Shown here piece after piece: positions 11,003 through 39,848 of a DNA stretch of 64,000 nt. The position numbers and the translations under genes were made by a program. The stretch covers positions 9,420 through 73,419 of the forward strand of contig JACMNI010000047.1 in the NCBI GenBank assembly GCA_014378615.1, in the 5' to 3' direction. Numbering within the stretch: the first letter of the stretch is position 1; the number at the start of each line of letters is the position of its first letter. Below the pieces are notes generated by a model, which saw only the letters and a program-made list of their open reading frames with translations, was not told the origin of the DNA and did not search any database. This DNA comes from Candidatus Saccharimonadota bacterium. GTDB taxonomy: Bacteria; Patescibacteriota; Saccharimonadia; Saccharimonadales; UBA4665.

Positions 11003-11020
11003 GGCAACCACCTTACTTAA

Positions 11021-11518: not shown

Positions 11519-14500
11519 ATGCTAAAAAACAGATTACACCTACCGCTATTCATGAACACCCTTTGGTCCAAAACCAGCAGGGTGTTCTTTGCTGTTGTGG
11601 GTAGTGTAGTCTTGACCCCTGTAATTTTTAATACGCGCGTGTTTACGCGAGTACGCGCGGAGCTCCGCACCACTGTTCGCCGCAGCTTGATAGCTGGTTT
11701 AGGGCTGTTGGTTATAGCCAGCATGTTCGCCGCCAGCGCCAAGCCGCTCACCGCTGTCGCTGCTACCTCAGACAACCTCAACTTCCAGGCTCGCCTTGAG
11801 CAGTCAAACGGCGCCATTGCTCCTGATGGCAACTACAACATCCAGTTTAAGCTCTACAACGTCTCTTCCGGTGGTACGGCCCTCTGGACCGAGAGCTACC
11901 TCAATAGTGTTGGGCAGGGTGTTCGAGTCGTTAACGGCTACGTTACCGTCAACCTCGGATCAATCACGGCTTTCCCATCGACCATGTCATGGGATCAATC
12001 ACTGTTTGTCACCATGAACATCGGTGGCACTTCTACCGGTGCGCCGACGTACGACGGGGAAATGAACCCCCGTCTGAAGCTTACCGCCGTACCGTACGCT
12101 TTCCAGGCCAAAAGTGCCGCCCAGCTACAGGTCCAGACTGGCCCCAACGTCGGTACCTTGGCATTTGGCCCACTGACCGCGACCCGTAACATTGCCTTGC
12201 CGGACGAAAACGGGACAGTCTGTATCCAGCTGAGCACCAGTTGTGGCTTTGCCAGCGCCACCGGTAGCAATAACTACATCCAAAACAACACTACCTTGCA
12301 ATCCTCGGCTAACTTCAATTTCCAGAGCAGTTCCACCACCGCCATTAGTGGTGCGATCCGCGCCTTAACTGGTCAGACCGCCGACCTGTTACGCCTCAGC
12401 GACTCTTCGGGCGCGACCCTAAGCGGCTTTAACGCCAGTGGCCAGCTCTACTACCAGAGCGGCAGCTTTACGGGTACGTTAGTGCAAAACGTTTTGGCAC
12501 AAAACACTGTTTATCACCTGGACGACCCGGGTATTGCCAGTGTTAACATCTGTCTTAGCACCGGTAACTGTGCCGGCGCTGGCAGCGGTGTGACATCGGC
12601 AACCGGCGGCACAGTCAACTACCTCGCCAAGTTTGACGCCGTCCGCAACATCGTCAGCTCTAGCCTGTTTGATGACGGTAGCTTCGTCGGCATCAATACT
12701 ATCTCTAACGCCGGCCAACTCAGCGTCGTTAGCACTAACGCCAGCCAGAGCGGTATTTACGTAAAGGGCGCGACCAGTGCAACTAGCGCCGCCTTTGTCG
12801 TCCAGGGTGGTGCCACCCCAGCGGCTGGCGGCGATCTGATTAATCTCAAAGATGTTTCTGGCGCTATCCTCAGTGGCTTCGATGCTAGCGGAAACCTGTT
12901 CTTCAACAAGGGCGGCTTTAAGGGTACCGTTACTCAGCAGAGCTTAGCCCAAAATACTACTTATCGTTTAGTTGACCCCGCCCAGGCCAGTGTCGATATC
13001 TGTCTCAGCACCGGCAACTGTGCGGGCGCGGGTAGTAGCGTTACCTCACTTGGCGGCACGGTTAACTACCTAGCCAAGTTTGACGCCGCCCGTGACATCG
13101 CCAACTCCAACATTTACGATAACGGCAGCTTCGTGGGAGTGAATACAATCACCAATAATGGCCTGTTGAGCTTGGTCGGGGCTACGGCCGCCCAGAGTAC
13201 ATTATTTGCGCAGGGAGCCGGCAGCGCTACCTCACCAGTTGCCGTTATTCGTTCCGGAACATTGCCGGGCGCTAGCGCCGACTTGCTGGTACTTCAAGAT
13301 TCCAGTGGCGTTACGCTCGCCAAGGTCGACAACAACGGCAACTTATCGGCCGTCAGTGGATTATTTAGCGGCAACATTACCCAAAGCGGTACTGGCACGT
13401 TCAATACTGGTACCGGCGCGGTCAGCCTTAACGGCAACACACTCGTTGGCGGCACGCTAACTGTTGGCACGGCGGCAACTGCTCTCGGCGGCACGCTTAG
13501 CGTTACTGGCCCAGCAACGTTCAACGGCGGATTAACGGCTGTCGGTAGCACCCTGATTAATACGACCGGTACCGCAGCCACGGCCATCGGCAACGCTACG
13601 GGGACCTTTACACTGACGTCATCTGGCTTGAACGTCGCCGCTACCGGTGCCTTGAGCGGCGTTTCTGGCTACACTCAGACTGGCGGTAACTTTACTATCA
13701 CGGGTCCTGGCACCTTCAGCACTGGTACGGGCGCTGTTACATTAAACGGTCCTACGATCGCCACCGGTACCTTAGCGGTGCAGGGCGTAAATGGTTTAAC
13801 ACTGGGTATCGCCAGTAACACCGCCGGCGTCCTCAACTTTGCCAACATCGCCAACTCCAACCTAACTGTGCTGACGGCAACCGCGCCAACCGGCACCGGC
13901 AATGCCAACGTGAGTCTGCCAACCTTAGTCGGCGGCACCAGTGCTACTATTTGTGTCAGCACCGGTAACTGTGCCGGCGCCGGTAACAGCGTTACTTCAA
14001 ACGCCGGCGGTACTACTAATTACATCGCTAAGTTCGTTAATACCCGCGATATTGGCAACGCCAGCATCTTTGACGATGGCACTTTCGTAGGTATTAACAC
14101 CACCAGTAATAATGGTTTACTTAGCTTGGTTGGCACCGGGTCATCACAGAGTACATTGTTTGCCCAAGGTGCCAGCAGTGCTTTATCACCAGTCGCAGTC
14201 ATCCGTTCCGGCGCTACACCCGGTCCTGGCGGCGATTTATTACAACTCCAAAACAGCACAAGTACGACGGTCGCTAAGATTGATTCTAGCGGTAACCTCA
14301 CCGCAGTTGGCGGATTATTCAGCGGTAACATTTCACAAACCGGCGCTACCACGTTCAGCACTGGTTCCGGCGCTGTCAGTTTTAACGGTGCCACCAGCGT
14401 CACCGGCAGCAACGCTTTCACCGTTGGTAGCGGTAGCACCACGCTAGGCGGTACGTTAAGCGCTGGCGGTGCAACTTCACTCGGCAATACCTTAACCGTC

Positions 14501-17500
14501 ACTGGTGCGAGCACCTTTAACAATAACGTTAGTGTTACGGGCAGCGGTACGCTCAGTGTTGCCAACGGCGCTACCACCCTTGGCGGCAGCTTAGCGGTCA
14601 GCGGTGTTACAGCCCTTAACAGCACTCTGGCTGTCAGCGGCGCCACTACCTTAACGGGACTTTTGACCGCCAACGGCGGCATCGTAGACACCGGCAACTT
14701 CAGTCAGACTGGCGCCGGTACCTTTAGCACCGGCAGTGGCGCAGTTACGCTCAATGGCGACACGGCTATTAATGGCACCAAAACCTTCACCGTCGGCACC
14801 GGTGCCACCAGCCTTGGCGGAACGCTTGGTGTAACTGGTACGAGCAGCTTTACTGGCGCCGCCACCTTTAACGGCGGCATCACCGACAACGGTAACTTCA
14901 CTCAAGCGGGCGCCGGAACCTTCAGTACTGGTTCAGGAGCGGTCAGCTTAAACGGCAACACGGCTATTACTGGCACTAGCACCCTTACCGTCGGCACCGG
15001 CGCGACTATCCTCGGCGGTACCCTCGGTGTTACGGGCCTAACTACCCTTAGTGGCGGTACGACCATCAGCGGCACAACCAGTATTACCGGTGCGACGACC
15101 ATTAACACGACCGGCAGTGCTAACACTTCCATCGGCAACGCCACCGGCAGCTTTAGCTTGGCGTCTTCGGCACTCAATGTTACGAGCGGCGGCGCCCTCA
15201 GCGGCATTACGACTATTAGTATGACCGGCGCAATTGCTGCGGCTACATCGGGTAACACTATAAATGGCTTGATTATTAACAACGGCGCCCTCAGCGGCAT
15301 CACCGGCTACGCCCAAGCCAGCGGCAACTTTGCCATCAGCGGTGCTGGCAGCTTCGGCACCGGTACCGGTGCGGTTTCGTTAAATGGCGCTACTAGCGTA
15401 ACCGGTTCTAACGCCCTAATCGTTGGCACCGGCGCCACCACCCTCGGCGGTACTTTAGGCGTCGCTGGTCTTACAACACTCAACGGCGGCGTAACGGTTA
15501 TCGGCGCTACTAACATCAATACTACTGGTACCGCCGCGACTAACATCGGTAACACCGGCGCTGCCTTTACGCTGGCTTCCAGTGGTCTAAATGTTACCAG
15601 CGCCGGCGCCGTCAGCGGTGTAACCGGCTACGACCAAACCAGCGGCAACTTCGCCCAAGCCGGCACCGGTAGTTTCAGCACCGGTAGCGGCATTGTCAGC
15701 TTGAACGGTAACACGACTATAACCGGTACTAAGACGTTAACCGTTGGTAGCGGGGCAACACTGCTCGGCGGCTCATTAACGGTCAACGGGGCATCGACTC
15801 TCAACGGTGGCGCTACTATAAGTAACGGTGCCACCATCAGCGGCGGACTCACCGCTACCGGCGCCACCGCCATCAACACTACCGGCACCGCCAACACCGC
15901 TATTGGCAACACCACTGGCAGCTTCAGCTTGCAGTCGAGCGCCCTTAATGTCAGCGCCAGCGGCGCCATCAGCGGTGTAACCGGCTACGACCAAACCAGC
16001 GGCAACTTCGCCCAAGCCGGCGGCGGCACCTTTAGTACCGCCAGCGGCGCCGTTAGCCTAAACGGCAATACGTCCATTATCGGTACCAGCACGCTCACCG
16101 TCAGCACCGGTGCCACCGCGCTAGGCGGCACTCTGGCGGTTAGCGGCCTGACTACTCTGAGCGGCGGAGCGACGGTAACTGGCGCTACCAGTATCACCGG
16201 CGCCACCGCCATCAACACTACCGGCACCGCCAACACCGCTATTGGCAACACCACTGGCAGCTTCAGCTTGCAGTCGAGCGCCCTTAATGTCAGCGGCACC
16301 GGTGCCATCTCGGGTGTTACTACGCTCAACTTGAGCGGGGCTATTGCCGGCGCTACCAGCGGTAACACCATTAACGGCCTCGTTATAAACAGCGGTGCCC
16401 TCAGTAGCGTAACTGGCTACAGCCAGACCAGCGGTAACTTTAGCCAAACCGGCACTGGCACCTTCGGCACCGGCACCGGTAGTGTTAACTTAAACGGCGT
16501 TACCTCTGTAACTGGCAGTAACGCCTTCAACGTTGGCACCGGCGCTACCACCCTCAGCGGCACCTTGGCTGTAACCGGCAGCACCACCTTAACTGGTCTG
16601 CTAACCACCAACGGCGGTATCACTGACACCGGCAACTTCCTCCAATCCGGCGCCGGCACCTTCAGTACTGGCACCGGCGCCGTCAGCCTAAATGGCGCCA
16701 CCACTATAAGTACTACACTCGCCGTGCAGGGCGCCGGCGGCATAACTGTTGGTACCCCAAGCGGCACCAATGGCAAAATCAGCTTTGCCAATAATCTCAA
16801 CAGTAACCTCGGGATCATCCAGATCGGTACCCCAAGCGGCACCGGCAACGCTACCTACACCGTGCCAACCATAGCCGGCGGCTCCAGCGACACCTTCTGT
16901 TTGTTAACTAATAACAACTGTAACTTCGAAACCACCAACGGAACCGACTTTGTCCGTAACCAGACTACCCAGCAAACTAGCGGCAACTTCAACATTCAAG
17001 CGCGCCCCGCCACCGTCGCCGCTGTTATACAGGGCGCCAGTGGCCAAGATATTATTAATCTCGTCAACAGCGCCGGCGCTACCGTTGCCAAAATCGATGC
17101 CAATGGTAATGTTACCGCCGTAAATGCCGTCTTTAGCGGCACAGTAACCCAGACTGGTAACGGCACCTTCAGCACCGGCACTGGCGCCATAAGTTTAAAC
17201 GGTAGCACCAGCGTTACTGGCACTAACACTCTTACCGTCGGCACCGGCGCTACTACCCTCGGTGGTACGCTAGCCGTCACCGGCGCTGCAACCTTTAATG
17301 GTGGCGTATCTGTGTCTGGCACCAATACACTCACCGTTGGCACCGGCGCAACTACCCTCGGCGGTACGCTAGCAGTTACCGGCCTCAGCACCTTCACGGG
17401 TGCCGCCACCTTTAATGGCGACATTACTGGTACGGCTAATATCTCTCAAACCGGTAACGGCAGCTTTAGTACTGCCACCGGCGCCGTTAACTTAAATGGT

Positions 17501-20500
17501 GCTACTAGCGTTAGCGGCAGCAATACCTTTACTGTCGGTACCGGTGCTACTGCCTTGGGCGGCTCGCTTGGAGTTACCGGATTAACTACCTTGAACGGCG
17601 GCGCAACCGTCCTCGGCGCCACCAACATCAACACCAGTGGCACGGCTAATACGTCAATCGGCAACAGCACCGGTAACTTCAGCTTGCAGTCAGCCGGCCT
17701 AAACGTATCTAGCGCCGGCGCCTTAACCGGTATTACTACTGTCAATATGAGCGGCGCCATCACGGCTGCTACTACCGGCAATACTATTAATGGTCTTATT
17801 ATTAACGGTGGCTCCTTGAGTGGCGTTACGGGCTACAACCAGTCTAGCGGTAACTTTACCCAATCCGGTACCGGCAGCTTTAATACCGCTACCGGCGCCG
17901 TTAGCTTAAACGGTCCTACGACCGTCACCGGCACGAATGCCTTTACAGTCGGCACCGGCGCCACTACCCTTGGCGGCAGCCTAGGTGTAACCGGCGCCAC
18001 GACTTTTACCGGCGCGCTAACCGCCAATGGCACCAGCACCTTCAACGCCAACGTTGGTATAACTGGCGCCAGCACTCTAACCGTTGGCACCGGCGCTACA
18101 GTCCTCGGCGGAACCCTTGGTGTTACCGGCCTAAGCACCTTCACCGGCGCCGCCACCTTCAATGGCGGTATCACCGATACTGGCAACTTTACCCAGACCG
18201 GCACCGGCACCTTCAGCACCGGCACCGGTGCAGTTTCCTTGAACGGCGTTACGACTGCTAATGCCAGCTTTAACGTCAGCGGAACCAACACCCTTACTGT
18301 CGGCACCGGCGCTACTAGCCTTGGGGGCACCCTAGCCGTTACCGGCACCAGCACCTTAACAGGCCTACTAACCGCTAACGGCGGCATCACCGATACTGGC
18401 AACTTTAGCCAGACTGGCACTGGTACCTTCAGCACCGGCACTGGCGCGGTCAGCCTCAACGGCGCAACTGCCGTTACCGGCACCAACACGCTTACAGTCG
18501 GCACCGGCGCGACTACCTTGGGCGGCAACCTAACCGTTAGTGGTGCAGCCGCCTTTAACGGTAACGTCACCATAAACGGCACTAATAACCTTACCGTTAC
18601 CAGCGGCGCTACCAGCCTTGGTGGGACTTTAGCAGTCACTGGCGCTACCACTCTTAGCGGCGGCTTAGCCGTCACCGGCGCCAGCAGCTTTAGCGGCAAC
18701 GTTTCACTCAGTGGCCTCAGCACCTTTACTACTGGCACCGGTACAGTTACGCTTGGTTCTCTCGGCGACGGCATCGTCCAGAGCAACGCCGCTGGCGTCC
18801 TTAGTAGCGGCACTGTTGATCGTAACGGCGCCTACCTAACAGGTACCACCTCTGTTACAAACGGTGGTACCGGCACTGCAACCTTTACTTCGGGCGGCAT
18901 CTTGTATGGCAACGGTACGAGCCCAATCCAGTCCACCATCTCGGCAGCTAACAGTATTCTTATTACGGGCAGCGGCAGCATTCCGACCTTGAGTCAGACG
19001 TTACCAGTCGCCGTCCAAGGCAACATTACCAACACCGGCGCCCTAAACGCCGGCTCGATTGTGTCCGGATTTGGATCCATCACCACAGCCAACAACATCA
19101 GCACTAGCGCAATAGTGCAGGGCGGTACTGTCACGGCTACCGGCGCCCTGAATGGCAACAGCTTGAGCATCAACTCCGGTGCTTTTGCAGTCAATGCTGC
19201 TGGCGCGATTATCGCTGCCACCGGCATCACGACCTCTGGAAACATTACTCAGTCTGGCACCGGCAGCTTTAGTACCGGAACTGGCGCCGTTAGCTTGAAC
19301 GGCGCCACGAGTGTCAGCGGCAGTAATACCTTTAGTGTCGGCAGCGGCGCTACCACACTTGGCGGCAGCCTCGGCGTAACTGGCGGCACCACCCTGGGCA
19401 GCACCCTGGGTGTAACGGGCGCTGCTACCTTTGCCAGCGCCGCTAGCGTCCAGGGTGCTGCCGGTCTTACTATCGGATCGACCACTAATAACGGCTTATT
19501 GACCTTACTAGATGGCACTACTGACGGCTTTACCGCTAGTATTGCTTTGGGAGGCGTACTTAGCGCTAACCAAAGCTATGTTCTGCCAACAGTTGGTGGC
19601 ACCTTCTGTCTGAACACCAACAACTGTAACTACCAAACTGCCGGTAGCTATGAACTTACGACCGGTACCGACTTCGTTCGTAACCAAACAACCTTGCAAA
19701 CCGTTGCCAACTTCAACATCAGCGGCACCGGTATCGCCAGCGTCTTCCAGGCTGCTAGCTTCGATACCAACACCGCAGCGACACTAAGCCTCGGTGGCAC
19801 TAACGCTACCGCTATCAACGTTGCGAAATCTGGCGTCACCACTACTATCGCCGGAGCCTTAAGCGTTGCACAAGCTAGCACCTTCAACGGTAATGTTAGT
19901 GTCAGCGGCAGCAATACGCTTACCGTCGCCACTGGAGCCACCAGCCTCGGCGGCAGCCTTGGTGTGACTGGCGCTACCAGCCTGAGCAACAGTTTGACCG
20001 TAGCCGGCGCCACCACCATTGGCGGTAACACTTCAATTACTGGCGCCAGCACACTAACCGTCGGCACTGGCGCTACCAGCCTCGGCGGCAGCCTGAGCAC
20101 CGCCGGAACGAGTACATTTACGGGCGCTTCCACCTTTAACGGCGGTATTACCGATGCTGGTAACTTTAGCCAAACTGGTACGGGTACGTTTAGTACAGGT
20201 ACGGGCGCGGTTAGCTTAAACGGTAACACCAGCATTTCTGGCACCAACACCCTTACTGTCGGCACCGGCACTACTACGCTCGGGGGCTCACTTGGCGTGG
20301 CTGGTCTTACGACATTAAGTGGCGGCGCTACCATTACCGGAGCAACGAGCATTATCGGCGCTACCACCATCAACACGACCGGCACCGCCAGCACGACTAT
20401 CGGCAATGCCGCCGCTGCTTTTAGCGTCGCCTCCAACGGTTTAAACATTACTAGCGCTGGTGCTCTCAGCGGCGTAACTGGTTATGCGCAGTCCAGCGGT

Positions 20501-23500
20501 AACTTCTTACAAAGTGGTGCTGGCAGCTTCGATACCGCCACCGGCGCGGTGTCACTCAACGGCGCAACAAGTGTCACCGGCAGCAACGCCTTTACCGTCG
20601 GTACCGGCGCCACCAACCTCGGCGGCGCACTGACTGCTACCGGGCTAGCTACTTTAAACGGTGGGCTCACAGTCACTGGCACGACGGCCATTAACAACGG
20701 CGGCACCGCTTCAACTAGCATCGGTAATAGCACGGGTACATTTAGTGTTCAATCATCAGCTCTTAACATATCCACCTCTGGTGCCCTGAGCGGAATTAGC
20801 GGCTACACCCAGACCAGCGGCAACTTTAGCCAGGCCGGCGTGGGTACATTTAGTACAGCTAGTGGCAATGTTGCCCTCAACGGCGCCACCACCATATCGG
20901 GCACGAATAACTTTACGGTCAACTCTGGCGCTGCCAGCCTGGGTGGCACTTTGGCTGTGGCCGGCGCGAGCACATTAAGCGGCAACGTTTCGGTTACTGG
21001 AGCTAGTACGCTTTCCGTCGGCACCGGCGCCACCTCACTTGGCGGTACGCTATCGGTTGCCGGTGCCACTACCATAAATGGCAACACCAGCATTACCGGC
21101 GCCAGCACCCTAACTGTCGGCACCGGCGCCACGACGCTCGGTGGCACGTTAGCGGTCACCGGCGCGGCCACTTTAAGCAGCACGCTTGCCGTTGCCGGCG
21201 GCAGTACCTTCACCGGCGCTTCAACCTTTAATGGCGGCATCACCGACACTGGCAACTTTGCCCAAACTGGCACCGGCTCCTTCAGCACCGGCACTGGCAC
21301 GGTGACGCTTAATGGCAACACGACAATCAGCGGCACTAATACACTCACCGTCGGCAGTGGCGCCACAACTCTTGGTGGCTCACTTGGTGTTACCGGCCTA
21401 ACTACCTTGAATGGTGGAGTAACCGTAACTGGTGCTACCAGTATTACTGGCGCCACCAGCATTAACACGACCGGCACCGCTAACACGGCTATCGGCAACG
21501 GTACGGGCAGCTTCAGTGTTCTTTCTTCCGGCCTAAACGTAACCGCCGCTGGCGCCCTCAGCGGTGTAACTGGCTACAGCCAGACCAGCGGTAACTTCTT
21601 GCAAAGCGGCACCGGTACCTTTGGCACCGGCACCGGTGTTGTTTCGTTGAACGGTGCAACCAGCGTTACCGGTGCCAACGCCTTTAGCGTCGGTACCGGT
21701 GCGACCAGCCTCGGCGGTACGCTAGGTGTCACCGGCACTAGTGGCTTCACCGGCGCCGCCACCTTCAACGGCGGCATCACCGACACCGGTAACTTTACCC
21801 AGACTGGCACTGGCAGCTTCAGCACCGGCACTGGCGCAGTATCACTAAACGGTGCGACCAACATCACTGGTGCCAACGCCTTCACGGTTGGCACGGGAGC
21901 CACCACGCTCGGCGGTGTGCTAAGCGTTAGCGGCACCTCTACTTTGAATGGCAACACTAGCGTTACCGGCATCAACACCTTTACAGTTGGCACCGGCGCC
22001 ACCGCCCTTGGCGGTACACTAGTCGTCACCGGCGCCACTACACTAAACAGCACCTTGGGTGTAGCCGGTGTAACGACCCTTAGCGGCAACACCAGCATTA
22101 CCGGCACTAGTACGCTAACCGTCGGCACCGGCGCCACCACGCTTGGTGGCACACTCGCAGTCAGCGGCGCCGCCGCGCTAAGCGGTACGCTAGCCGTAAC
22201 TGGCGCCACTACGCTTAGCAGTACGCTTTCAGTTGGCGGCACCAGCACCTTCACCGGCGCCGCCACCTTCAACGGCGGCATCACCGACACCGGTAACTTT
22301 GCCCAGACCGGCACTGGCAGCTTCAGTACCGGTACCGGCGCCGTATCATTAAACGGCAACACCAGCATTACCGGCGCCAACACATTAACCGTCGGAACTG
22401 GCGCCGTAACCCTCGGGGGCACCCTTGGCGTAACAGGTCTTACTACGCTAAGTGGTGGTGCAACTGTTACCGGCGCAACCAGCATTACTGGCGCCGCTAC
22501 CATCAACACCACCGGCACCGCCAGCACTGCTATTGGTAACGGCACTGGCAGCTTCAGCGTGGCTTCAAACGCCCTCAACATCACCAGCTCAGGCGCCATA
22601 AGCGGCGCAACCACCATTGGTCTAAGTGGTGCCATAAGCGGCGCGACTAGCGGCAACACTATTAACGGTCTGGTTATAAACGCCGGCGCCCTGAGCGGCG
22701 TCACTGGCTATAGCCAAACCAGCGGTAACTTTGCCCAAACCGGTACCGGCACATTCGCGACCGGTACCGGCGCAGTTTCGTTGAACGGCAACACCAGCGT
22801 ACTTGGTGCCAACACCTTTACCGTCGGTACCGGCGCCACCAATTTGGGTGGTGTCCTTGGTGTAACGGGCGCCACTAGCCTTGGCAGCACGCTCGGTGTT
22901 ACCGGCGTCGCAACCTTTGCCAGCTCGGCCAGCGTTCAGGGCGCTGCTGGTCTTACCCTCGGCTCTACTACCAACAACGGTCTACTCAAACTCCTTGACG
23001 GTACGGCTGATGGCTTTAACGCCAGCATATCCCTCGGCGGAGTCCTTGGTTCGAATCAAGCCTACAGTTTGCCGACTACCGGAGGCACCTTCTGTCTGAG
23101 CACCAACAACTGTAATTACCAGGCTCCTGGCGATTACGAGTTAACAACCGGTACCGACTTCGTCCGTAATCAAACTACGCTGCAAACCACAGCTAACTTC
23201 AACATTAGCGGCACCGGTATCGCCAGCGTCTTCCAGGCTGGTAGCTTCGACACCAACACCGTCGCCGTGCTCAGCCTTGGGGCAACCAACGCTACGGCGC
23301 TCACCGTTGCCAAGTCTGGCGTTACCACGACTGTTGCCGGCGCCCTCACCGTTACCCAAGCCAGCACCTTCAACGGCAACGTCAGTATTGCTGGCGCTAA
23401 CACCCTTACTGTTGGAACTGGCGCTACAACTCTCGGCGGCACGCTTGGCGTGACCGGCGCGGCTAGCATTGGCAGCACTTTGGCTGTTACCGGCGCAACA

Positions 23501-29500: not shown

Positions 29501-32500
29501 GACCTACTACAACTCCAGACTTCGGCTGGCACCATTGTTGCCAAGATTAGCGCTAGCGGCAACCTCAGCGTGCTTGACGGCAACTTCAGCGGCAACGTCG
29601 CCCAGACCGGCAGCGGCAGCTTTAGTACCGGCACCGGAGCAGTTAGCTTAAACGGCAACACCAGCATTACTGGAACTAACACCCTAACTGTTGGAACTGG
29701 CGCTACGGCTCTGGGCGGTTCACTCGGTGTCACCGGATTAACCAGCCTCAACGGTGGGGCTACTATTGCCGGAGCTACCAGCATCACCGGTGCGACCACT
29801 ATCAACACGACCGGCACCGCCAACACTGCCATTGGTAACGCTACCGGCAGCTTCAGTGTCACCTCAAACGCCCTCAACATTAGCAGCGTCGGTGCCATCA
29901 GCGGTGTTAGCGGCTACAGCCAGACCAGTGGTAACTTTGCCCAAACCGGCACCGGCACCTTCAGCACCGGCACCGGCGCCGTCAGCCTAAACGGCAACAC
30001 CAGTATTACCGGTGCCAACACCCTTACTGTTGGCACCGGCGCTACCACCCTCGGTGGCAGCCTTGGCGTAACCGGCGCCGCTACCTTTAGCAGTACCTTA
30101 AACGTTGGCACCAGCGCTACCACTCTTGGTGGTACGCTGACCGTCGCCGGTGCAACCACCTTCAACGGTGCTGTCAGTATTTCAGGTACTAACGCCCTGA
30201 CTGTTGGCACTGGCACTGTAACGCTCGGCTCGCTAGGAACTGGATTAGTCCAAAGCAGCGCCACCGGAGTCCTATCCAGCGGCTCCGTCGACCGCAACAA
30301 CGCCAGCTTCTTCAACACCGCTCTCAGTGTGGCCAACGGTGGTACTGGCATTAATACGCTCGCTGCCAACGGCGTCCTTTACGGTAATGGCTCGGGCGCT
30401 ATACAGGCCACTGCTGCCGCCGCCAACAGTATTCTAGCCACCAATGGCACTAGCGTTCCTGGATTGACTCAGACGCTGCCTACGGCCGTCCAGGGCAACA
30501 TAACCAGTACCGGTATTCTGGCCGCTGGTTCGATTGCTTCTGGCTTCGGCACTATAGTTACTGCCAACAACATTACTACCACTGCAGCTGTCCAAGGCGG
30601 TACCGTTACGGCCACTGGCGTCCTCAGTGGTAACAGCCTCAGCATCAACGCCGGTGCCTTTGCGGTTTCCAGTACCGGCGCGATTACGGCTGCTACCGGC
30701 ATCACTACCAGTGGCAACTTTAGCCAAACCGGCACCGGCAGCTTCGGCACCGGCACTGGCGCTGTTAGCTTAAACGGCGCTACCATCGTTACTACCGGCA
30801 ATAACTTTAACGTCACCAATGGCACCTCCAACTTCGGTGGCGCCGTGAACGTTCAAAGCGCTGCCGGCCTGACGCTTGGCGTTGCTAGCACGACGACTGG
30901 TAAGCTCACTTTTGCCAACAGCACCACCGCTAATCTGGCTACGCTTCAGATCGCCGCTCCTACCGGCACCGGTACGGCTGCTTATACGCTGCCAAGTATT
31001 GCTGGCGGCACCAGCGACGAAATTTGTGTGAAACTAGCCGGTAACTGTGCCGGTAGTGTCAGCGCCACGGGTGGTCAGGCCAACTACGTTGCCCGCTTTA
31101 CCAACGCCAGCACCCTCGGTATTGGACAACTCTTCGACAACGGTAGCTTCGTCGGCGTCAACACTAACACCAACAGCGGTCAGTTAAGCATCCTCAGCAG
31201 CGGCACTACCCAAGCGGCTATCTTTGCTCAAGGCGCCACTAGCGCTACCACGCCTGTAGCCGTCATTAAGGGCGGCGCTACTCCAGGTATTGGCGGCGAC
31301 CTGCTGCAGCTACAGACCTCAGCCGGCTCGGTTGTGGCTAAGATTGATGCCAGCGGTAACTTCAGCGGCGCCGGCGGTAACTTCAGCGGCGCCGTATCTA
31401 TTAGCGGCACCAGCACTCTTACTGTTAGCACCGGCGCCGTCACCCTTGGCTCGCTCGGCGCTGGACTAGTCCAAAGCAGTTCAGCGGGTGTCCTTAGCAG
31501 CGGCGCCGTCGACCGCAACAGCGCTAGCTTCTTCAACACTGCGCTTACCGTTACCAACGGTGGCACCGGCGCTGGCACATTTACGACCAACGGCCTTGTC
31601 TTCGGTAACGGTACGGGTGCCTTGCAAGTAACCGCCGCTGCCGCCAACAGCATCTTGGCCACCAACGGCACTAACGTTCCAGGCCTTACACAGACTCTGC
31701 CAACCGCCGTTCAGGGCAACATCACCAGCACCGGCGCCCTAGCAGCTGGCTCAATCGCCACCGGCTTTGGAGTCATTAGCACTGCCAACAACATCACCAC
31801 AACCGCTGCTCTCCAGGGCGCTACCGTTACGGCTACCGGCGTCCTCAGCGGTAACAGCTTCAGCATTAACGCTGGCGCCTTCGCCGTCTCCAGCACCGGC
31901 GCCATCACGGCTGCTACCGGCATCACTACCACAGGAAACTTCAGCCAAACGGGTGCTGGCACCCACAGTACCGGCACCGGCGCCGTCAGCTTGAACGGTG
32001 CCACCAGCATCACCGGCACCAACACCCTTACGGTTGGCAGCGGCGCTACTGCTCTTGGCGGCACGTTGAGCGTAGCTGGCGCTACCACCTTTAACGGTGC
32101 GGTTTCAGTCTCTGGAACCAACAACTTCACTACCGGTATCGGTAGCGTTACGCTTGGTTCACTAGCGGCCGGCGTCGTTCAGAGCAACGCCAGCGGACTC
32201 CTTAGCAGCAGCGCCATCGACCGCAACAGCGCTACGCTGCTTACCAACACGTTGTCTATCGCCAACGGTGGTACCGGTGCCACTACCTTTGCCACCAACG
32301 GTATTCTGTACGGCAACGGCGCGACTAATATCCAGGCAACCGCCTCGGCCGCCAACAGCATCTTGGCTACCAATGGTACTAGCGTACCAGCGCTAACTCA
32401 GACTCTGCCAGCCAATGTTCAAGGCAACATTACGACCACCGGTGCTCTTAGCGCCGGCTCAATCGCCAGCGGCTTCGGAGTTATTTCAACCGCCAACAAC

Positions 32501-35500
32501 ATTACTACCACCGCCACGATTCAGGGTGGCACCGTCAACGCTACCGGCGTCCTCAGCGGTAACAGCCTTAGCATAAACGCTGGCGCCTTTGCGGTTTCCA
32601 GTACCGGCGCCATCACCGCTGCTACCGGCATTACTACCAGCGGCAACCTCAGCCAAACCGGCACCGGCAGCTTCAACACCGGCACCGGCGCAGTTAGCCT
32701 CAACGGTACTACCACTGTTACCACCGGTAACAACTTTAACGTTACCAATGGCACGTCTAACTTCGGCGGTGCTGTAAACGTCCAGAGCGCCGCTGGGCTT
32801 ACTCTCGGCACGGCCAGCACAACTACAGGTAAACTGACTTTTGCCAACGCTGGCAGCGCTAGCCTAGCCGTTATTCAGGTCGGGGCTATCACTGGCGCAA
32901 CTGGTACTGGTACTTACAACGTTCCTGGTATCGCCAGCGGCGCTACCGATGAGTTCTGTCTGCGCTATTCCTCAAACTGTGGCGGTGTAACTGCTACCGG
33001 TGGCACCCAAAACTATGTTGCTAAGTTTACTAACTCCAGCACCCTCGGTATTGGTCAACTCTTCGATAATGGCAGCTTCGTCGGCGTCAACACGACTACC
33101 AATAGCGGCCAGTTAAGCATCCTCAGCAGCGGCGCTGCCCAAGCGGCTATCTTTGCTCAGGGCGCCGCCAGCGCTACCAGCCCGGTAGCTGTCATTAAGG
33201 GCGGCGCTTCACCTGGCATCGGCGGCGACTTGTTGCAACTCCAGAACTCAGCTGGCACCGTGGTCGCTAAGGTTGATGCCAGCGGTAACCTCAGCGCTGT
33301 AAATGTAAACGTATCTGGTGCTTTTGCTCAGACCGGCACCGGCAGCTTCAGCACCGGCACCGGCGCAGTGTCAATTAACGGCGCTACAACCATTGCTGCT
33401 GCCACGACTATTAACGGCACCAACCCGCTCACCGTTGGCACTGGTACCGTTACTCTAGGTTCATTGGGCGTCGGCCTAGTAAAGAGCGACATCATCGGCG
33501 TCCTAAGTAGCGGCACCGTCGACCGCAACAGCGCCAGCTACTTCAACACCACGCTCAGCGTCGCCAACGGCGGCACCGGCGCCACAACGCTCGCTTCCAA
33601 CGGAATTTTATTCGGCAACGGTACTGGCGCCTTACAAGCTACGACTTCACTCGCCGGCGCTGTACTAGTTACCGATGCCACCACCAGCATCCCAAGCCTC
33701 AGCCAAACTCTACCTGTCGCCGTTCAGGGCAACATTACTAAGACCGGCGCTCTAGCTGCCGGTTCAATCGCCACTGGCTTTGGCGTAATTAACACTGCTA
33801 GCAGCATTACAACTTCGGTTGCCCTCCAAGGTGCGACTGTTAACGCAACCGGCGTCCTCAGCGGTAACAGCCTCAGCATCAACGCTGGCGCCTTTGCCGT
33901 CTCCAGCGCTGGCGCGATTACGGCTGCTACCGGCATTACTACCAGCGGCAACCTCAGCCAAACCGGCACTGGCAGCTTCAGCACCGGCACCGGCGCAGTT
34001 TCCCTGAACGGCGCTACTACAGTAAGCTCGACGCTAGCCGTTCAAGGCGCCGCTGGCCTAACCCTCGGTGTTGCCGGTACAACTGCCGGTACGCTCAACT
34101 TTGCCAACACATCTAACACTAACGTCGGCAGCCTACAGATTGCCGCACCTAGCGGCACCGGCACCGGCAGCTACTCTATTCCTAGCATCGCCGGCGGCAC
34201 CAGCGACTTCATCTGTGTTAAGCTCATCAACAACTGTGCCAGCGTTACCGCTTCTGGTGGAACCGCTAACTACGTCGCTCGCTTCACGGGAGCTAATGCT
34301 CTTGGAATTGGCACTCTATACGACAACGGCAGCTTCGCCGGTGTAAACACCGCTACTAACAGCGGTACCCTCAGCATCCTAAGCAGCGGCGCTACCTCGG
34401 CTGCCGTCTTCGCTCAGGGCGCCGCCAGCGCTACCACCCCTGTAGCAATTATTAAAGGTGGCGCAACCCCAGGTGCCGGTGGCGACCTGGTTCAGTTCCA
34501 GACCTCAGCTGGCGCATCAGTTGCTAAGATCGACGCCAGCGGCAACATTCTTGGCGCCAGTTTTGACACCGTCGGCGCCGGCGTCCTAAACATCGGCACC
34601 ACCAACGCTACCAGCATCGCCCTCAAGCAGAACACCACCGTTACCGGTACGCTCAGTGTCAGCAATGGCCTGAGCGTAACCGCTGGAGCCAGCAGCTTTG
34701 CCGGTGCCGTAAGCCTGACTAACGGCAATAACTTAACGGTCGGTACCGGTGCAACCTCTCTTGGCGGCACCTTAGCCGTTACGGGTACCGGTACTTACAC
34801 CGGCTTGCAAACCTTTAACGGTGGCGTTACCGTCGCTAACAACAGCGCCTTTGCCCAGACCGGCACCGGCACCTTCAGTACCGGCACCGGCGCCATTAGC
34901 CTCAACGGCGCTACCACAATTGGCAGCACCCTAAACGTCAGCGGCGGCACCGTCACCGTTGGCTCAACTGGTCAATTCACTATTGGAACTAATGGCAACG
35001 TCGCAACCAGCGGCTCAGTGCTTGGCGCCAGCTTTGACGTCAACGCTGCCGGTGCACTCAGCCTCGGCACCACTAACGCTAATAGCATTGCCCTCATGAA
35101 AAACACCAGCGTTACCGGCACTCTAGCCTTTAGTGTCCTCGGCGCTGCCGGTTCAACTCAGGTTTGTCAGAACGCCAGCAACCAGCTCAGCAGCTGTTCC
35201 GTAACCTACGAAGCCACTACCGGTACCGATTTTGTCCGTAACCAGACCGCCCAGCAAACCGGCGCTAACTTCAACATCCAGGCCCGCGCCAGCAGCGTGG
35301 CAGCTACCATTCAGGGCGCCACTGGTCAGGATATTGCCAACTTTGTCAGCAGTGGCGGTGCTACCGTAGCCAAGATTGACGCCAGCGGTAACTTGACCGC
35401 CGTTCAAGGTACCTTTAGCGGCGCTGTCAACGCCAATGGTGGCGTCTTCCTCGGCGCCAACCAAAACCTATCATTGGCAACTGGCACTGGCATCATCACT

Positions 35501-38500
35501 CAGGGCTACAGCAACACCACCGGCTCTGCTAACACTACTACCGTCGCCAACACCGGTACTACCGGTGCTAACAGCGTTAACGCCATCAACCTAAGCCTGA
35601 GCGGTTCGGCCAACGGCACCGGCAGCAACACTACCACCGGCATCAACCTTGGTAACGTCGCGGCTCTATCGGGCAACGCCTTTACGGCCTTCAAGGTCGG
35701 TACTGGCTACGCCGATATCCTCAGCTACAACGGTACCAGCATCATCAACGGTTCTGGCCAGCTAAACCTCAGTCAAGTTACCAACACCCTTGGCGTTGCT
35801 AACGGGGGTACCGGCACCACCAGCCTGACCACCAACGGTATCCTGTTTGGAAATGGTACCAGCGCTATCCAAGCCACCGCCGCAGCTGCCGACAGCATCT
35901 TGGCTACCAGCGCCACTAACGTACCTGGCCTCACCCAGACGTTACCAACGGCCGTCCAGGGCAACATCGTCAAAACCGGTGCTCTAGCCCTCGGCTCGAT
36001 TGTTTCAGGCTTTGGTACCATCAACACCGGCAACACCATTACTACCAGTACTACCTTGACTGGTGGCGTCGTCAATGCCACTACTGGCTTCACCATTGGT
36101 GGCGCCGCCGCTACTGGTCAATTCCTACGCGGCAATGGCACCAACTTTGTCAGCAGCACTATTGCCGGTACCGACATTGCTGGTACTCTGTTTACCGTTG
36201 CCGGCTCAGCTGGCACCGCCCAGAACGTTGCTGGTGGAGGCACCGTATCTATCCTTAAGGGAACAAGCAACAACCTAACCACTACCGCCAGCGCCACTAA
36301 CACCCTTACTGTCGACATCATCAGCAACCCAAGCTTTAGCGGCGCTGTTACCAGCACCGCTAGTACTACCGGTTTGGTCGCCAGCGGCGCGCCAGTTGCC
36401 GGCAGCGGCATCACTTCGTTACTGCAACTTGGTGGCGCTATTGCCGCTGGCAACGTCAGCGCTAACGGCGGTACCTACTTCGGAATCAACCAGCCAGCTA
36501 CTGGCGCTGGCTCGGCCGCCGACTTCATTAACTTCCAGAACAACAATGTCGTTAAGTTGCAGGTCAGCAGCGCTGGCTTAGTCAACGCTGCTGGTGGCTT
36601 TGCCGTCGGCGCCAATACTGGCGTTTCTGCCACTTGTTCTACGGGCTTCGGCATGACCGGCAGTACGTTTACCGGCGGTATCTTGACCACTGGGACTTGT
36701 AGCCAAACAGTTGCCACTCTCCAGTCGGCCTACACTGCATCTGGTTCAACTAACCCACAGATCCTGCTCAGCTCAGCTAACGGCGGAATAAAGATCCAAG
36801 ACGGTACTACGCCAGTTACCGGCAACTTACTCCAGATTTCCAACAACGGCGGCACAACCAACTACTTTGGCGTTAGCAGCAGTGCCGTAACCGTTATTGG
36901 ATCCCTCAACGTAACCGGCGGTTACACGCAATCTGGTACCGCCAGCAACACCTTCCTCGGCGCTACAACCTTCAGCGCTGCCGGCACCGGTGCCAGCGTT
37001 ACCAACGGCTTCGCCGTCGGCACGAGCAACCAGTTTACCGTAGGTGGCACCGGTAACGTCGCTACTAGCGGTACATTTGCTCAGACCTATAGCACTGGCG
37101 CCACTGGCACCACTAACGTCAACAGTGTTAGTGCTACTAGCACCAACACCTCGGCTACCTCGGCTACGGTTAACGCCCGCAGCATAAGCTTGACGGGTAC
37201 CACTAACACTTCAGGTGGCACGCCGAATATCTTAAACGCGGTTAACCTAACCAACGTCGCGCCACTCACCGGCAACCAATTTAACGGTATCGTTATCGGT
37301 TCTGGTTACGACAACCCAATCACTATTGCCGGCAACTCAGTCTTCTCGGCTACCGGCATTATTCAGAACGGCGCCTTTGCTACCGGTACCACTTACAGCA
37401 ACATCACTAAGATTGGTACCGTTACGGCTGGTGTCTGGAACGCTTCGACAGTTACCGCCGCTTATGGTGGTACCGGTTCCAGCGCTATCCCAACTAATGG
37501 ACAGCTCTTAATCGGTAATGGTACCGGTTACACGGCCGCTAGCTTGACGACTGGTGCAGCCAGCGGCTTAACCCAGACCGCTGGTGCCGGCAGCCTCGGC
37601 TTGGCCGTCAACTTTGGTAGCGGTGCCAACCAGGTTGCCGCTGGTAACGCTAGCATCACCTGTGCTTCCGGTACTGGTAACCTAACCGGTGGTGGAACCG
37701 TTATCTCTGTCGGCGCTGGCGGCACTTGTGGCGCTATCAGTACCGTCGCTAACCCATCGTTCAACAGCCTTACTATCGCCAACACCACTAACACCAACAC
37801 CGCGCTACTCGTTCAAAACGCCAGTGGCTTCAACTCGATGACCTTCGATACCGTCAGTGGTACCCTAAAGGTCTGGGACACCAGCGTTGCTGGAACTCCA
37901 ACTAACTACGCATCAGTCAGCTACGCCAACAATACCGCCGTCTTTGCAGCTTCTAGCGGCGTTACCCAAGTCGGTGCTACTTCAGGCAACGTTACGGTTC
38001 CGCTCACCAACGCCGGCGACAACTTCCTCTACACCAAGACCAATACCGTCTCGGCCGCCTACAGCACTAGCGAATTCACTATCCAACGCGTGGTAACTGG
38101 TGGCGCCAATGCCCTTACCGGCCAAGTCTTAAAGGTCGAAAACCGCTCAACCGGAACCAACGACTCTGCCGCCGTTCTCTACGTAAACCAAAACAACACC
38201 AGCGCGACTGGTAACGTGGTTCAGGTTCAGTCTGGTGCAACTACCAACTTGTTAACCCTCGATACCGCCGGTAACTTAAACGTCAAGAACGGCTACCAGG
38301 TTAACGGTGTAGCTGGAACTAACTTGACCTGTACCGCAGGCGCCGGTCTCACTAACGCGGTTATCGCCGGCGGTATCGTTACCAGTGGTACATGTTCTGG
38401 TGGTACCGGTACACTCCAGACCTCTTACGCCAACGACACCAATACCAATGCGCAGATCCTCACTACTTCTGCTTCTAAGGGTATCCTTTTCAAGGCTGGT

Positions 38501-39832: not shown

Positions 39833-39848
39833 TATTATGGTTATATAT

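What the first reader, a model, noticed from the sequence alone, without database searches (positions are those of the whole stretch)
12250..36200. The giant protein reads as about 20 fibre units joined by three conserved junction modules
Three module types recur in a fixed internal motif order.

- Type A occurs 9 times, with Cys codons at 12551, 13001, 13952, 25172, 26492, 29213, 31025, 32957 and 34214. Its pattern is I/F-C-x5/6-C, then GG--NY-AKF, D-GSFVG-NT, ATSPVAVIKGGATPG-GGDLLQLQ-S-G, and ASGNL. Each copy is 338-357 nt.
- Type B occurs 5 times, at 16895, 19604, 23090, 27575 and 35162. Its pattern is F-C-L-x-T-N-N-C-N-Y ... GTDFVRNQTTLQT-ANFNI.
- Type C occurs 6 times plus variants, with VDRN codons at 18815, 28550, 30287, 31508, 32216 and 33518. 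Its pattern is TLGSLG-G-VQS ... NGGTG ... QTLP-AVQGNIT ... GAFAV. Unlike types A and B it has no leading Cys pair.

Types A and B are always preceded by VQGA-G-T-G ... APTGTG-A-Y-LP--GG-(SD/F). That looks like a fibre end followed by a disulfide knot and then a new fibre start.

Motifs such as NGGTGATT, Q-ANFNI and D-G-VGI-T resemble those I recall from phage tail-fibre-like and bacterial tail-fibre-domain proteins. So the gene may be a head-to-tail fusion of many fibre cassettes.
Basis: partly seen in the sequence, partly recalled or inferred. Interest (0 to 1): 0.78.

Follow-up and report, generated by a model that had tools for sequence, protein, structure and literature searches.

The report
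Giant modular surface fibre of Saccharibacteria
One 27.7-kb gene in a Saccharibacteria (CPR) chromosome encodes a 9,224-residue, membrane-anchored, phage-tail-fibre-like surface fibre. It was built by repeated internal duplication of a few junction modules and is most likely a very long, tip-variable adhesin for reaching host cells.

Summary
ORF 11519-39193 (+) encodes 9,224 aa. All Cys, VDRN and motif coordinates check out. Module profiles re-find their copies at E 1e-41 to 1e-90.

There are 9 A copies, 6 B copies (one unlisted, at nt 12221) and 8 C copies. There is also a fourth module (D, 12 copies), a shared pre-Cys junction (J), and 39 stalk restarts. 38 of 40 Cys lie in pairs, against 7.6 expected by chance. 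The pairs are conserved in about 45 of 52 A-like and 64 of 65 B-like copies from relatives.

The gene sits in a housekeeping locus (RNR, IleRS, L21, then the giant gene). That order is conserved in at least 10 Saccharimonadales genomes, with lengths from 3.4 to 9.2 kaa.

The N-terminus has a hydrophobic anchor followed by a domain remotely matching the Bdellovibrio MAT fibre N-domain. The C core and the A head recur in phage tail-fibre-like proteins and in collagen/S74-terminated bacterial fibres, which argues for a trimer. The last ~475 aa diverge sharply from a close relative, which looks like a tip swap.

No module matched Pfam or any solved structure. The monomer AF2 models were weak.

Verdict: a new, extreme multi-cassette variant of MAT/tail-fibre-like adhesins. 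Trimer state, disulfide knots and function are inferred, not shown.

The parts
11519..39193 (+). Giant ORF: 9,224 aa, about 872 kDa. Composition T 18.6%, G 17.2%, A 12.9%, S 11.2%, N 8.3%; only about 3% charged residues.
11519..11752 (+). N-terminal leader. It has a conserved basic/hydrophobic extension (RVFFAV...TPVIF-TR, aa 22-37), then a second hydrophobic segment (aa 56-73) ending AASA-KP. Predicted signal peptide or membrane anchor.
   Evidence: hydropathy; conservation across 15 or more orthologues
11756..12133 (+). N-terminal globular domain remotely similar to the Bdellovibrio MAT fibre N-domain (NF053851).
   Evidence: E 4e-5 and collinear over profile positions 10-151 of 162, below the curated cut-off. 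7 of 9 orthologues hit the same family only, at E 4e-8 to 1e-4. 48-84% identical to the N-termini of orthologues.
12161..12418 (+). B-type module copy 0 (Cys 235/242). It follows the N-domain directly in all orthologues.
12533..13354 (+). Two A modules in tandem without a J junction (Cys 345/351 and 495/501).
13766..14308 (+). J junction plus A module (Cys 812/818).
16700..17110 (+). J plus B module (Cys 1794/1801).
18740..19234 (+). C module (VDRN 2433).
19424..19834 (+). J plus B module (Cys 2697/2703).
22907..23320 (+). J plus B module (Cys 3859/3865).
23966..24958 (+). Non-repetitive mid-fibre insert (aa 4150-4480). It has relatives in other family members but no library match.
24986..26857 (+). 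Two J plus A modules (Cys 4552/4558 and 4992/4999) separated by stalk repeats.
27392..27781 (+). J plus B module (Cys 5354/5360).
28475..34558 (+). Array of C and J-A cassettes: C5678, A5899, C6257, A6503, C6664, C6900, A7147, C7334, A7566. Includes the higher-order duplication aa 6196-6616 matching 6839-7259.
35015..35392 (+). B module variant (Cys 7883/7893, C-x9-C) without the J junction.
35702..36199 (+). C module variant (aa 8062-8227).
37391..37690 (+). Divergent C-core copy that matches the PHROG 31660 'tail fiber protein' family.
   Evidence: E 1e-6
36206..38527 (+). C-terminal shaft of different make-up, with three C-x20/21-C pairs (aa 8373/8394, 8715/8737, 8938/8959).
38528..39190 (+). 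Conserved pre-tip element (aa 9004-9080) followed by a variable C-terminal tip (aa ~9082-9224). Relatives carry the pre-tip element about 110-310 aa before their own C-termini.

Best explanation
The gene encodes a cell-surface fibre of a Saccharimonadales (Saccharibacteria, CPR) bacterium.

**Layout, from N to C**
- A hydrophobic leader or anchor holds the N-terminus at the membrane.
- A MAT-like N-domain follows.
- Next come about 9,000 residues of Gly/Thr/Ser/Ala/Asn-rich beta stalk. Its hydrophobic period is 6, and it restarts 39 times with GNF-QTG-G-F-TGTGAVSLNG.
- 23 compact junction modules interrupt the stalk.
- The protein ends in a distinct C-terminal shaft and a variable tip.

**Composition of the junction modules**
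- J is the shared pre-Cys element (VQGA-G...T-Y-LP--G).
- A conserved C-x5/6-C loop follows J.
- The head is either A-type (NY--KF...DDG-FVG-NT) or B-type (YIQN/FVRNQT--Q--NFNI).
- A tail element, -G-DLL-L-NS-G...-GN(L), follows in all A copies and about half the B copies.
- C is a separate module. It is built round a ~75-aa repeat shared with phage tail fibres.

**Shown**
- The anatomy above.
- Conservation of the modules and Cys pairs in relatives.
- Chromosomal synteny.
- Shared modules with tail-fibre, S74 and collagen proteins.
- Cassette-number differences between relatives.
- A sharp identity drop in the tip.

**Inferred**
- The chain forms a homotrimer, as MAT fibres and tail fibres do.
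- The junction modules act as register-keeping nodes or hinges between stalk segments. The Cys pairs may be oxidised within or between chains.
- Intragenic duplication and loss of cassettes tunes the length. At MAT-like rise per residue the fibre would be about 0.35-0.4 um.
- The swappable tip binds a surface ligand of the host bacterium in the epibiotic lifestyle.
For: **Anatomy**
- Module anatomy and statistics.

**Family**
- The A, B and C profiles hit 59, 29 and 68 of 154 relatives retrieved, in varying order and number.
- An exhaustive phmmer scan of 1.84 billion representatives found only 372 hits, including giants of 5.6-7.6 kaa.
- Cys pairs are conserved in relatives.

**Cellular, orthologous locus**
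- FtsZ, NrdR, RNR and IleRS lie upstream; ParA/ParB, a signal peptidase and LCP lie downstream.
- RNR, IleRS, then the giant gene is the order in L002, L003, L006, L007, L009, L010, L013, L014, L016 and L017. IleRS is 66-82% identical in most of them.

**Anchor and N-domain**
-.
- The same MAT_N profile also hits a Saprospiraceae protein (L034) with the order N-domain, collagen, A head, S74.

**Evidence for a trimer (indirect)**
- In L034 and L038 the A head directly follows collagen triple-helix repeats, and both proteins carry a Peptidase_S74 chaperone domain near the C-terminus.
- L019, which has the Cys pair, and L023 also carry S74.
- P0039 has four C cores followed by S74. P0196 has two C cores followed by Gp53-like_C.
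- PHROG tail-fibre hit.
- The C core is in at least 51 viral contigs and the A head in 5.
- BFVD Foldseek top hits are phage proteins, some named tail fibre. The local matches run 51-84 columns at 31-46% identity, but E is only 0.02-0.13.

**Evolution of cassettes and tip**
- L006 and L003 are collinear with the window protein at 85% and 80% over its first 2,300-2,570 aa.
- L001 is 66-84% identical only over window aa ~6750-8697, and 31-38% (58% in one partial block) upstream of that.
- L004 is 76-91% identical up to aa ~8750, then 40% and 29%.
- Internal repeats are diverged, mostly 73-83% at the DNA level.

**Length estimate**
- MAT crystal dimensions are 142 A for 370 aa and 60 A for 135 aa (PMC10769870).
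Against: - No direct evidence of oligomeric state. The AF2 monomer model of J+A is unusable (pLDDT 55.7). The C model is confident only for a ~40-residue four-strand core.
- No solved structure matches any module, by sequence profile or by fold.
- The MAT_N hits all fall below the curated cut-off (22-36 bits against 60).
- The giant protein itself has no S74, collagen or other Pfam domain.
- The B head was not found in viral contigs.
- GenBank phage genomes gave no tblastn match to A or C.
- Function, host binding, surface exposure and expression are all untested. All database relatives checked are named 'hypothetical protein' or misnamed.
Confidence: 0.6

Rival explanations
1. A monomeric beads-on-a-string adhesin. 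Each chain folds alone into beta-solenoid stalk segments separated by small globular modules. The Cys pairs are simple intrachain loops. It has the same surface-adhesin role but no trimer.
For: - Hexad hydrophobic periodicity is compatible with single-chain beta-helices.
- The protein has no S74 chaperone or collagen segment of its own.
- AF2 gave a locally confident single-chain four-strand core for C.
Against: - The modules are shared with proteins whose other parts are obligate trimers: collagen triple helix and S74 chaperone.
- The N-domain resembles MAT_N.
- Monomer AF2 failed to fold J+A, as is usual for intertwined trimers. That observation is weak and rests on general experience.
Confidence: 0.2
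2. A structural envelope component rather than a host-binding adhesin. For example, a fibrous coat, spacer or sheath that sets the distance to the host or protects the tiny cell.
For: - It occupies a conserved position in a housekeeping locus across many Saccharimonadales.
- It has an extreme, nearly uncharged composition.
Against: - A sharp tip divergence next to a conserved shaft is the signature of receptor-binding fibres.
- So is the variable tip after a conserved pre-tip element.
- Cassette number varies 3.4-9.2 kaa between relatives.
Confidence: 0.12
3. A phage- or tailocin-derived tail fibre gene, that is a prophage remnant, rather than a cellular gene.
For: The C core and A head occur in viral contigs and match a PHROG tail-fibre family.
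Against: - No phage genes flank it. Its neighbours are FtsZ, NrdR, RNR, IleRS, L21 and ParAB.
- The same synteny holds in at least 10 genomes.
- It has an N-terminal membrane leader.
- The full A and B modules were not found in IMG/VR.
Confidence: 0.03
4. An assembly artefact or non-coding repeat tract that merely stays open.
For: - The region is highly repetitive and compositionally biased.
- Many long antisense ORFs exist within it.
Against: - Repeats are mostly only 73-83% identical at the DNA level, and those at 90-95% are short.
- Independent MAGs carry collinear orthologues at 80-85% amino-acid identity over more than 2,300 aa.
- Motifs and Cys pairs are conserved at the protein level.
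Confidence: 0.02

Closest known systems
Bdellovibrio bacteriovorus MAT (mosaic adhesive trimer) fibre superfamily (Caulton et al. 2024, PMC10769870; NCBIfam NF053851)
   Same: - The N-terminal domain is the only NCBIfam family hit, for the window protein and for 7 of 9 orthologues.
- Both are long beta-rich fibres with mosaic composition.
- Both have a conserved shaft with a swappable C-terminal tip (the paper reports tip diversity).
- Both are used by a bacterium that lives on other bacteria. For this protein that use is inferred.
- Like the paper's NS74 subgroup, this protein has no S74 domain.
   Different: - It is about 9 times longer. The MAT proteins studied in the paper are roughly 900-1,150 aa.
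- The N-domain match is below the curated cut-off.
- It has a hydrophobic leader or anchor in a Gram-positive-like CPR envelope.
- 23 internal junction modules with conserved Cys pairs are not described for MATs. The paper has no mention of cysteine or disulfide.
- The trimer state is not shown here.
Bacterial collagen/Peptidase_S74 'tail-fibre-domain' proteins (for example the Saprospiraceae and Woeseiaceae proteins in L034 and L038, and Chitinophagaceae L023)
   Same: - They share the A-head motif (G-NY--KF...G-S-iyDdG-FVGigT).
- L034 shares the MAT_N-like N-domain.
   Different: - They are 500-1,500 aa long.
- They use collagen repeats as the stalk and carry an S74 chaperone near the C-terminus.
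- They lack the Cys pair, the J junction and the DLL-L-NS-G tail of the A module.
Phage long tail fibres and other modular receptor-binding fibres (PHROG 31660; Gp53-like_C proteins; uncultured Caudovirales proteins in BFVD and IMG/VR)
   Same: - The C core repeat (VANGGTG...GNGT...[QTLP-AVQGNIT]) and the A head are shared.
- The general design matches: stalk segments, small interspersed domains and a variable tip.
   Different: - This gene is chromosomal, syntenic and membrane-anchored.
- It is far longer.
- The B head, J junction and Cys loops were not found in viral data.
- There is no match in GenBank phage genomes.
Trimeric autotransporter adhesins with repeated head-neck-stalk modules (for example BadA; from general knowledge). 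An analogy only.
   Same: Very long surface fibres assembled from a small dictionary of repeated modules, with copy number varying between strains.
   Different: No YadA-like C-terminal beta-barrel anchor, coiled-coil stalk or any TAA Pfam domain. The anchor is at the N-terminus.
Cystine knots at collagen junctions (FACIT C-x4-C, collagen III C-C; from general knowledge). An analogy for the Cys pairs only.
   Same: Two closely spaced Cys sit exactly at the boundary between a fibrous segment and the next domain.
   Different: There are no Gly-X-Y repeats here. Interchain bonding is untested.

Membership tests
Bdellovibrio MAT fibre superfamily | Conserved N-terminal MAT domain (NF053851) | tested here: inconclusive
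   It is the only family hit for the N-domain and is collinear over profile positions 10-151 of 162. It scores E 4e-5 at 23 bits against a cut-off of 60. 7 of 9 orthologues score 22-33 bits.
Bdellovibrio MAT fibre superfamily | Intertwined homotrimeric beta-helix or beta-prism shaft | not testable with these tools
   Only monomer AF2 was available. J+A gave pLDDT 55.7 and C gave 70.6. Indirect support comes from modules shared with collagen/S74 proteins.
Bdellovibrio MAT fibre superfamily | Variable C-terminal tip on a conserved shaft | tested here: met
   L004 is 76-91% identical over aa 7250-8750, then 40% and 29%. A conserved pre-tip element is followed by unrelated ends in relatives.
Peptidase_S74-terminated tail fibre or tailspike proteins | C-terminal intramolecular chaperone domain (PF13884) | tested here: not met
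   No Pfam hit in the whole protein or in the C-terminal segments. S74 is present in relatives that share the A head or C core.
Phage tail fibre (virion component) | Encoded within a phage or prophage next to tail and baseplate genes | tested here: not met
   The neighbours are housekeeping genes and the synteny is conserved.
Phage tail fibre (virion component) | Shares tail-fibre repeat modules | tested here: met
   PHROG 31660 at E 1e-6. The C core is in at least 51 IMG/VR contigs and the A head in 5.
Trimeric autotransporter adhesins | C-terminal YadA-like membrane anchor with coiled-coil stalk | tested here: not met
   Pfam found nothing at E <= 0.1. The C-terminus is a beta-rich tip.
Sortase-anchored Gram-positive adhesins | C-terminal LPXTG sorting signal | tested here: not met
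   There is no LP-TG-like motif near the C-terminus. The last ones are at aa 3851 and 5346, inside J.
Collagen-like fibres with a cystine knot | Gly-X-Y triple-helix repeats adjoining the Cys pair | tested here: not met
   No Collagen Pfam hit. The stalk has hexad periodicity, not triplet.

The most novel reading that the evidence does not exclude
Environmental Saccharibacteria carry, at a fixed chromosomal locus, a homotrimeric fibre of about 2.6 MDa and 0.35-0.5 um, longer than the cell itself. It is made of 20-40 stalk segments stapled at each junction by rings of interchain disulfides from the conserved C-x5/6-C pairs. Its length and tip are continually re-tuned by cassette duplication, loss and tip swapping. 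On this reading it is the primary long-range host-capture and host-specificity device of these ultra-small epibionts, and an evolutionary bridge between phage tail fibres, Bdellovibrio MAT fibres and CPR surface proteins.
Probability: 0.25. Interest if true: 0.78.

Novelty: new variant of a known kind. Interest (0 to 1): 0.55.

Why it matters
How ultra-small CPR epibionts find and hold their hosts is largely unknown beyond type IV pili and a few adhesins (PMC10633639).

This locus offers several concrete things to work on:
- a conserved, syntenic candidate gene;
- a clear module grammar;
- four or more unannotated domain families (J, A, B and C/D) that could be turned into profiles;
- a variable tip whose diversity could be compared with host range.

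It also extends the MAT/tail-fibre design principle from about 1 kaa proteins to one of about 9 kaa, in a different phylum and a different envelope type. Finally, it shows cassette-level evolution of a fibre inside one gene.

Tried and rejected
**Library scans**
- Pfam on the whole protein in two halves: nothing.
- Pfam, NCBIfam and PHROGs on ten segments: only MAT_N, PHROG 31660 and noise such as Beta_elim_lyase and dihydroorotase.

**Solved structures**
- PDB sequence and profile searches for A, B, C, the N-terminus and the tip: only chance-level hits (SV2C at E 0.03, a TCR chain).

**Structure prediction and fold search**
- AF2 monomer of J+A was unusable. Its Foldseek PDB search topped out at HylP phage tail fibre, E 0.35, and Bd1334, E 7.5. 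Neither is significant.
- AF2 of C was moderate. Its PDB Foldseek search found nothing. BFVD gave only weak E-values.

**Homologue searches**
- The word-indexed homologue search returned only short fragments: 4 hits for A and 58 for C. The exhaustive representative search was more informative.
- tblastn against GenBank phages found no match for A or C.
- IMG/VR scans for full A and B found none. A degenerate DNA pattern for the B head found none.

**Discarded or failed steps**
- Alignment A7 was discarded because I had typed some sequence tails by hand.
- Its replacement A8, built from real sequences, was too variable for the scanner.
- The exact look-up of the window's IleRS was not on record, so the source genome was not identified.

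**Regulatory signals and literature**
- An Rfam and promoter scan of the 500-nt upstream spacer found only the L21 terminator and weak promoter-like sites.
- Literature searches found no description of this Saccharibacteria family.

**Explanations rejected**
- Prophage origin, assembly artefact, TAA, and sortase-anchored adhesin.

Full report
**1. The observation**

The window holds one uninterrupted ORF, 11519-39193 on the + strand, encoding 9,224 aa.
- The nine type-A positions are the first Cys of C-x5/6-C pairs.
- The five type-B positions are the codon before the first Cys.
- The six VDRN/IDRN codons are correct.

MAFFT alignments show real, position-specific similarity. A copies are 56-58% identical with 48 invariant columns, C copies 44-79%, and B copies 32-83%. 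Profiles built from them recover the copies at E 1e-41 to 1e-90.

Cysteine placement is strikingly non-random. 38 of 40 Cys lie within 25 residues of another Cys. Random placement gives 7.6 on average and never more than 22 in 10,000 trials.

Internal DNA repeats are mostly only 73-83% identical. The few stretches at 90-95% are short, about 136-160 nt. The repeats are therefore old duplications, not an assembly artefact.

**2. Corrections and additions**

- A sixth B copy lies at aa 235 (nt 12221), directly after the N-terminal domain.
- Two divergent C copies lie at aa ~8087 and ~8640.
- The pre-Cys junction (J: VQGA-G...APTGTG-ATY-LP--GG) is one element shared by A and B. It is present before only 7 of 9 A and 4 of 6 B copies.
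- A fourth module, D (INTTGTANTAIGN...GY-QTSGNF), occurs 12 times by the INTTG pattern. Six D-type sites carry a GNTINGL insert.
- The stalk restarts 39 times with F-x-T-G-T-G-x-V-x-L-N-G, after every canonical C and most A and D modules.
- A and B are themselves composites. Three of the six B copies share with A the tail element -G-DLL-L-NS-G...-GN(L). That element also occurs alone and in tandem in a relative, P0004.
- Stalk segments show a hydrophobic period of 6, plus 6n+3 offsets.
- The protein is 68% Thr, Gly, Ala, Ser and Asn, about 3% charged, and about 872 kDa.

**3. Context and taxon**

The neighbours are housekeeping genes. FtsZ, NrdR, class II RNR and IleRS lie upstream. ParA/ParB, a signal peptidase and an LCP protein lie downstream. 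A small L21 gene with a terminator lies between IleRS and the giant gene, followed by about 500 nt of spacer.

A scan of one genome per species with the A profile returned 38 loci. The 18 best are Saccharibacteria or Patescibacteria MAGs. In at least ten of them the order RNR, IleRS, giant ORF recurs. RNR is 76-85% identical and IleRS mostly 66-82% identical to the window's.

The gene is therefore a chromosomal, orthologous locus of a Saccharimonadales lineage, not a prophage. Complete orthologues range from about 3,400 to 3,700 aa. Metagenomic relatives reach 5.6-7.6 kaa.

**4. The family**

An exhaustive phmmer search used aa 5290-6420, which spans B, C, A and C, against 1.84 billion cluster representatives. 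It found only 372 proteins at E <= 1e-3 and 42 at E <= 1e-30.

Of the 154 relatives retrieved, 59 carry A, 29 carry B and 68 carry C, in many orders and numbers. Those looked up are annotated 'hypothetical protein', apart from two evident misnomers.

Cys pairs are kept in about 45 of 52 A-like copies, including one in a Roizmanbacteria protein, and in 64 of 65 B-like copies. They are lost in the distant Bacteroidota and DPANN relatives that keep only the A head.

**5. What the ends look like**

*N-terminus.* The first 78 residues contain two hydrophobic stretches, aa 22-37 and 56-73. The first sits in a motif conserved among orthologues (RVFFAV...TPVIFYTR). The second ends in AASA-KP, like a signal peptide or signal anchor.

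Residues 80-205 hit one NCBIfam family only, Bdello_MAT_N. This is the N-domain of the Bdellovibrio mosaic adhesive trimer fibres. The hit is collinear but below the curated cut-off. 7 of 9 orthologous N-domains do the same, at E 4e-8 to 1e-4.

In the MAT paper this domain is invariant and is proposed to sit at the predator surface, with variable tips at the far end (PMC10769870).

*C-terminus.* The shaft changes character after aa ~8230. It carries three C-x20/21-C pairs. A pre-tip element, aa 9004-9080, is found in many relatives, mostly about 110-310 aa before their own C-termini. The final ~140 aa matched little in the relatives compared.

Against the close relative L004, identity is 76-91% up to aa ~8750, then drops to 40% and 29%. 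That is the pattern of a swapped receptor-binding tip.

**6. Links to tail fibres, and the case for a trimer**

*C module.* The C core is a ~75-aa repeat, L-VANGGTG-T-L---G-LYGNGT...NS-L-T...P-L-QTLP-AVQGNIT-TG. It recurs as follows:
- four times in P0039, which ends in a Peptidase_S74 chaperone;
- twice in P0196, which ends in Gp53-like_C;
- in at least 51 IMG/VR viral contigs.

The divergent copy at aa 8624-8723 hits the PHROG 31660 tail-fibre family at E 1e-6.

The AF2 model of C is confident only for a four-strand core. It has no PDB match. Against BFVD the top hits are phage proteins, several named tail fibre. The local matches span 51-84 columns at 31-46% identity, but E-values are only 0.02-0.13.

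*A module.* The A head (G-NY--KF...G-S-iyDdG-FVG-nT) occurs in five viral contigs, inside ORFs of 791-2,581 aa. I read these as tail-fibre-like from their size and motifs. It also occurs in Bacteroidota and Woeseiaceae proteins.

In L034 and L038 the A head directly follows collagen triple-helix repeats, and both proteins carry a Peptidase_S74 domain near the C-terminus. L019 and L023 also carry S74. L034 additionally has a MAT_N-like N-domain.

Collagen helices and S74 chaperones are hallmarks of obligate trimers; this is established knowledge of those families. Sharing modules with them is therefore indirect evidence that the giant fibre is trimeric.

*B module.* The B head was not found in viral data. 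GenBank phage genomes gave no match to A or C.

**7. Cassette evolution**

Higher-order repeats point to intragenic duplication rather than fusion of separate fibre genes. The C-J-A block at aa 6196-6616 matches 6839-7259. The J-A-stalk-D block at aa 4914-5279 matches 5821-6186. The J-B block at aa 2603-2818 matches 3765-3980. All are at about 75-76% nucleotide identity.

Between relatives the pattern is as follows:
- The first 2,300-2,570 aa are collinear with L006 (85%) and L003 (80%).
- L001 is orthologous only over window aa ~6750-8697 (66-84%). Upstream it aligns at 31-38% (58% in one partial block), so the central array differs.

Only one anchor domain and one tip exist. The cassettes are therefore not whole fibres.

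**8. Mechanism proposed**

Shown: the anatomy, conservation, synteny, module sharing and tip divergence.

Inferred:
- The chains trimerise, as in MAT and tail fibres.
- The junction modules act as register-keeping nodes or hinges. Their Cys pairs may be oxidised within or between chains, by analogy with collagen cystine knots.
- Cassette number sets the reach. MAT crystal data give 142 A per 370 aa and 60 A per 135 aa, or about 0.04 nm per residue. That scales to roughly 0.35-0.4 um for this protein.
- The tip binds a host surface ligand.

The A-head segment FVG-NT / VGIGT--P---L resembles the MAT capping-loop motif V-G-G/N-pi-x-x-P-x-x-x-L. This is a lead only and was not tested.

**9. Comparison, novelty and verdict**

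The closest known kinds are MAT fibres, collagen/S74 tail-fibre-domain proteins, and phage tail fibres. Membership of the curated MAT subfamily is not established, because scores fall below the cut-off. S74, collagen, TAA anchors and LPXTG motifs are all absent.

No paper in the searchable library describes this Saccharibacteria family. The Saccharibacteria Tn-seq study lists other adhesins.

I rate it a new, extreme variant of a known kind. It has a multi-cassette grammar, four or more unannotated module families, conserved Cys-pair junctions, and a size of 9.2 kaa in an ultra-small epibiont. Interest is moderate to high, 0.55. The anatomy is solid, but oligomeric state, disulfides, surface display and function remain inferences.

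Noticed in passing
window 11519-11752 (aa 1-78): A conserved N-terminal extension (M-K...RVFFAV...TPVIFYTR-R) precedes the signal-like hydrophobic segment. It is shared by orthologues from many MAGs. It is reminiscent of extended signal-peptide regions of very large secreted adhesins. Its function is unknown.
   Followed up: partly
window 36635-38395 (aa 8373-8959): Three further Cys pairs with a different spacing, C-x20/21-C (for example CSTGFGMTGSTFTGGILTTGTC). They mark another recurrent module in the C-terminal shaft, outside the finding's range.
   Followed up: no
window 23966-24958 (aa 4150-4480): A non-repetitive, probably globular insert in the middle of the fibre. It includes FVNSAATNVTFTMHG...FIWNGSAWINP and a motif IYLQTADASSIGLVSTSAQTLAGAKTF. 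Relatives have it (38-56% identity), but no library matches it.
   Followed up: partly
window 38717-38744 (aa 9055-9080): The motif GAMYFNSATGSFRCYQNAAWQSC lies in the pre-tip element. Many relatives conserve this element, mostly about 110-310 aa before their own C-termini. It is a possible tip-attachment or adaptor element.
   Followed up: partly
window 39837-42050 (+): The gene immediately downstream encodes a 737-aa protein with a signal-like N-terminus, two internally repeated ~250-aa regions and C-terminal repeats with Cys pairs. It has no Pfam hit. It is 45% identical over 280 aa to an ORF in locus L009.
   Followed up: partly
window 10695-11043: A small L21-like ribosomal protein gene (MKKAVILTGGKQYLV...; my reading of the sequence, no family scan was run) with a strong intrinsic terminator at 11019-11043. 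It lies between IleRS and the giant gene. About 475 nt of AT-rich spacer follow, with only weak promoter-like sites.
   Followed up: partly
window 12000-38000, minus strand: Eleven antisense ORFs of 151-376 aa lie inside the giant gene, and GC skew on the coding strand is steadily negative (-0.07 to -0.17). Both are most simply by-products of the Gly/Thr/Ala/Ser codon bias, not genes.
   Followed up: no
L001, L002, L006 (JARXKN01 bin06): One MAG bin holds three different contigs with this giant gene. Two of them carry their own RNR-IleRS upstream. This suggests that the bin mixes several related strains or species.
   Followed up: no
L017/L018 (JABCZM010000003): The two loci overlap on one contig and show a giant ORF running more than 5,000 aa in a Saccharibacteria MAG. 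It is built almost only of B-type modules at roughly 400-620-aa spacing. Module usage therefore differs strongly between lineages.
   Followed up: no
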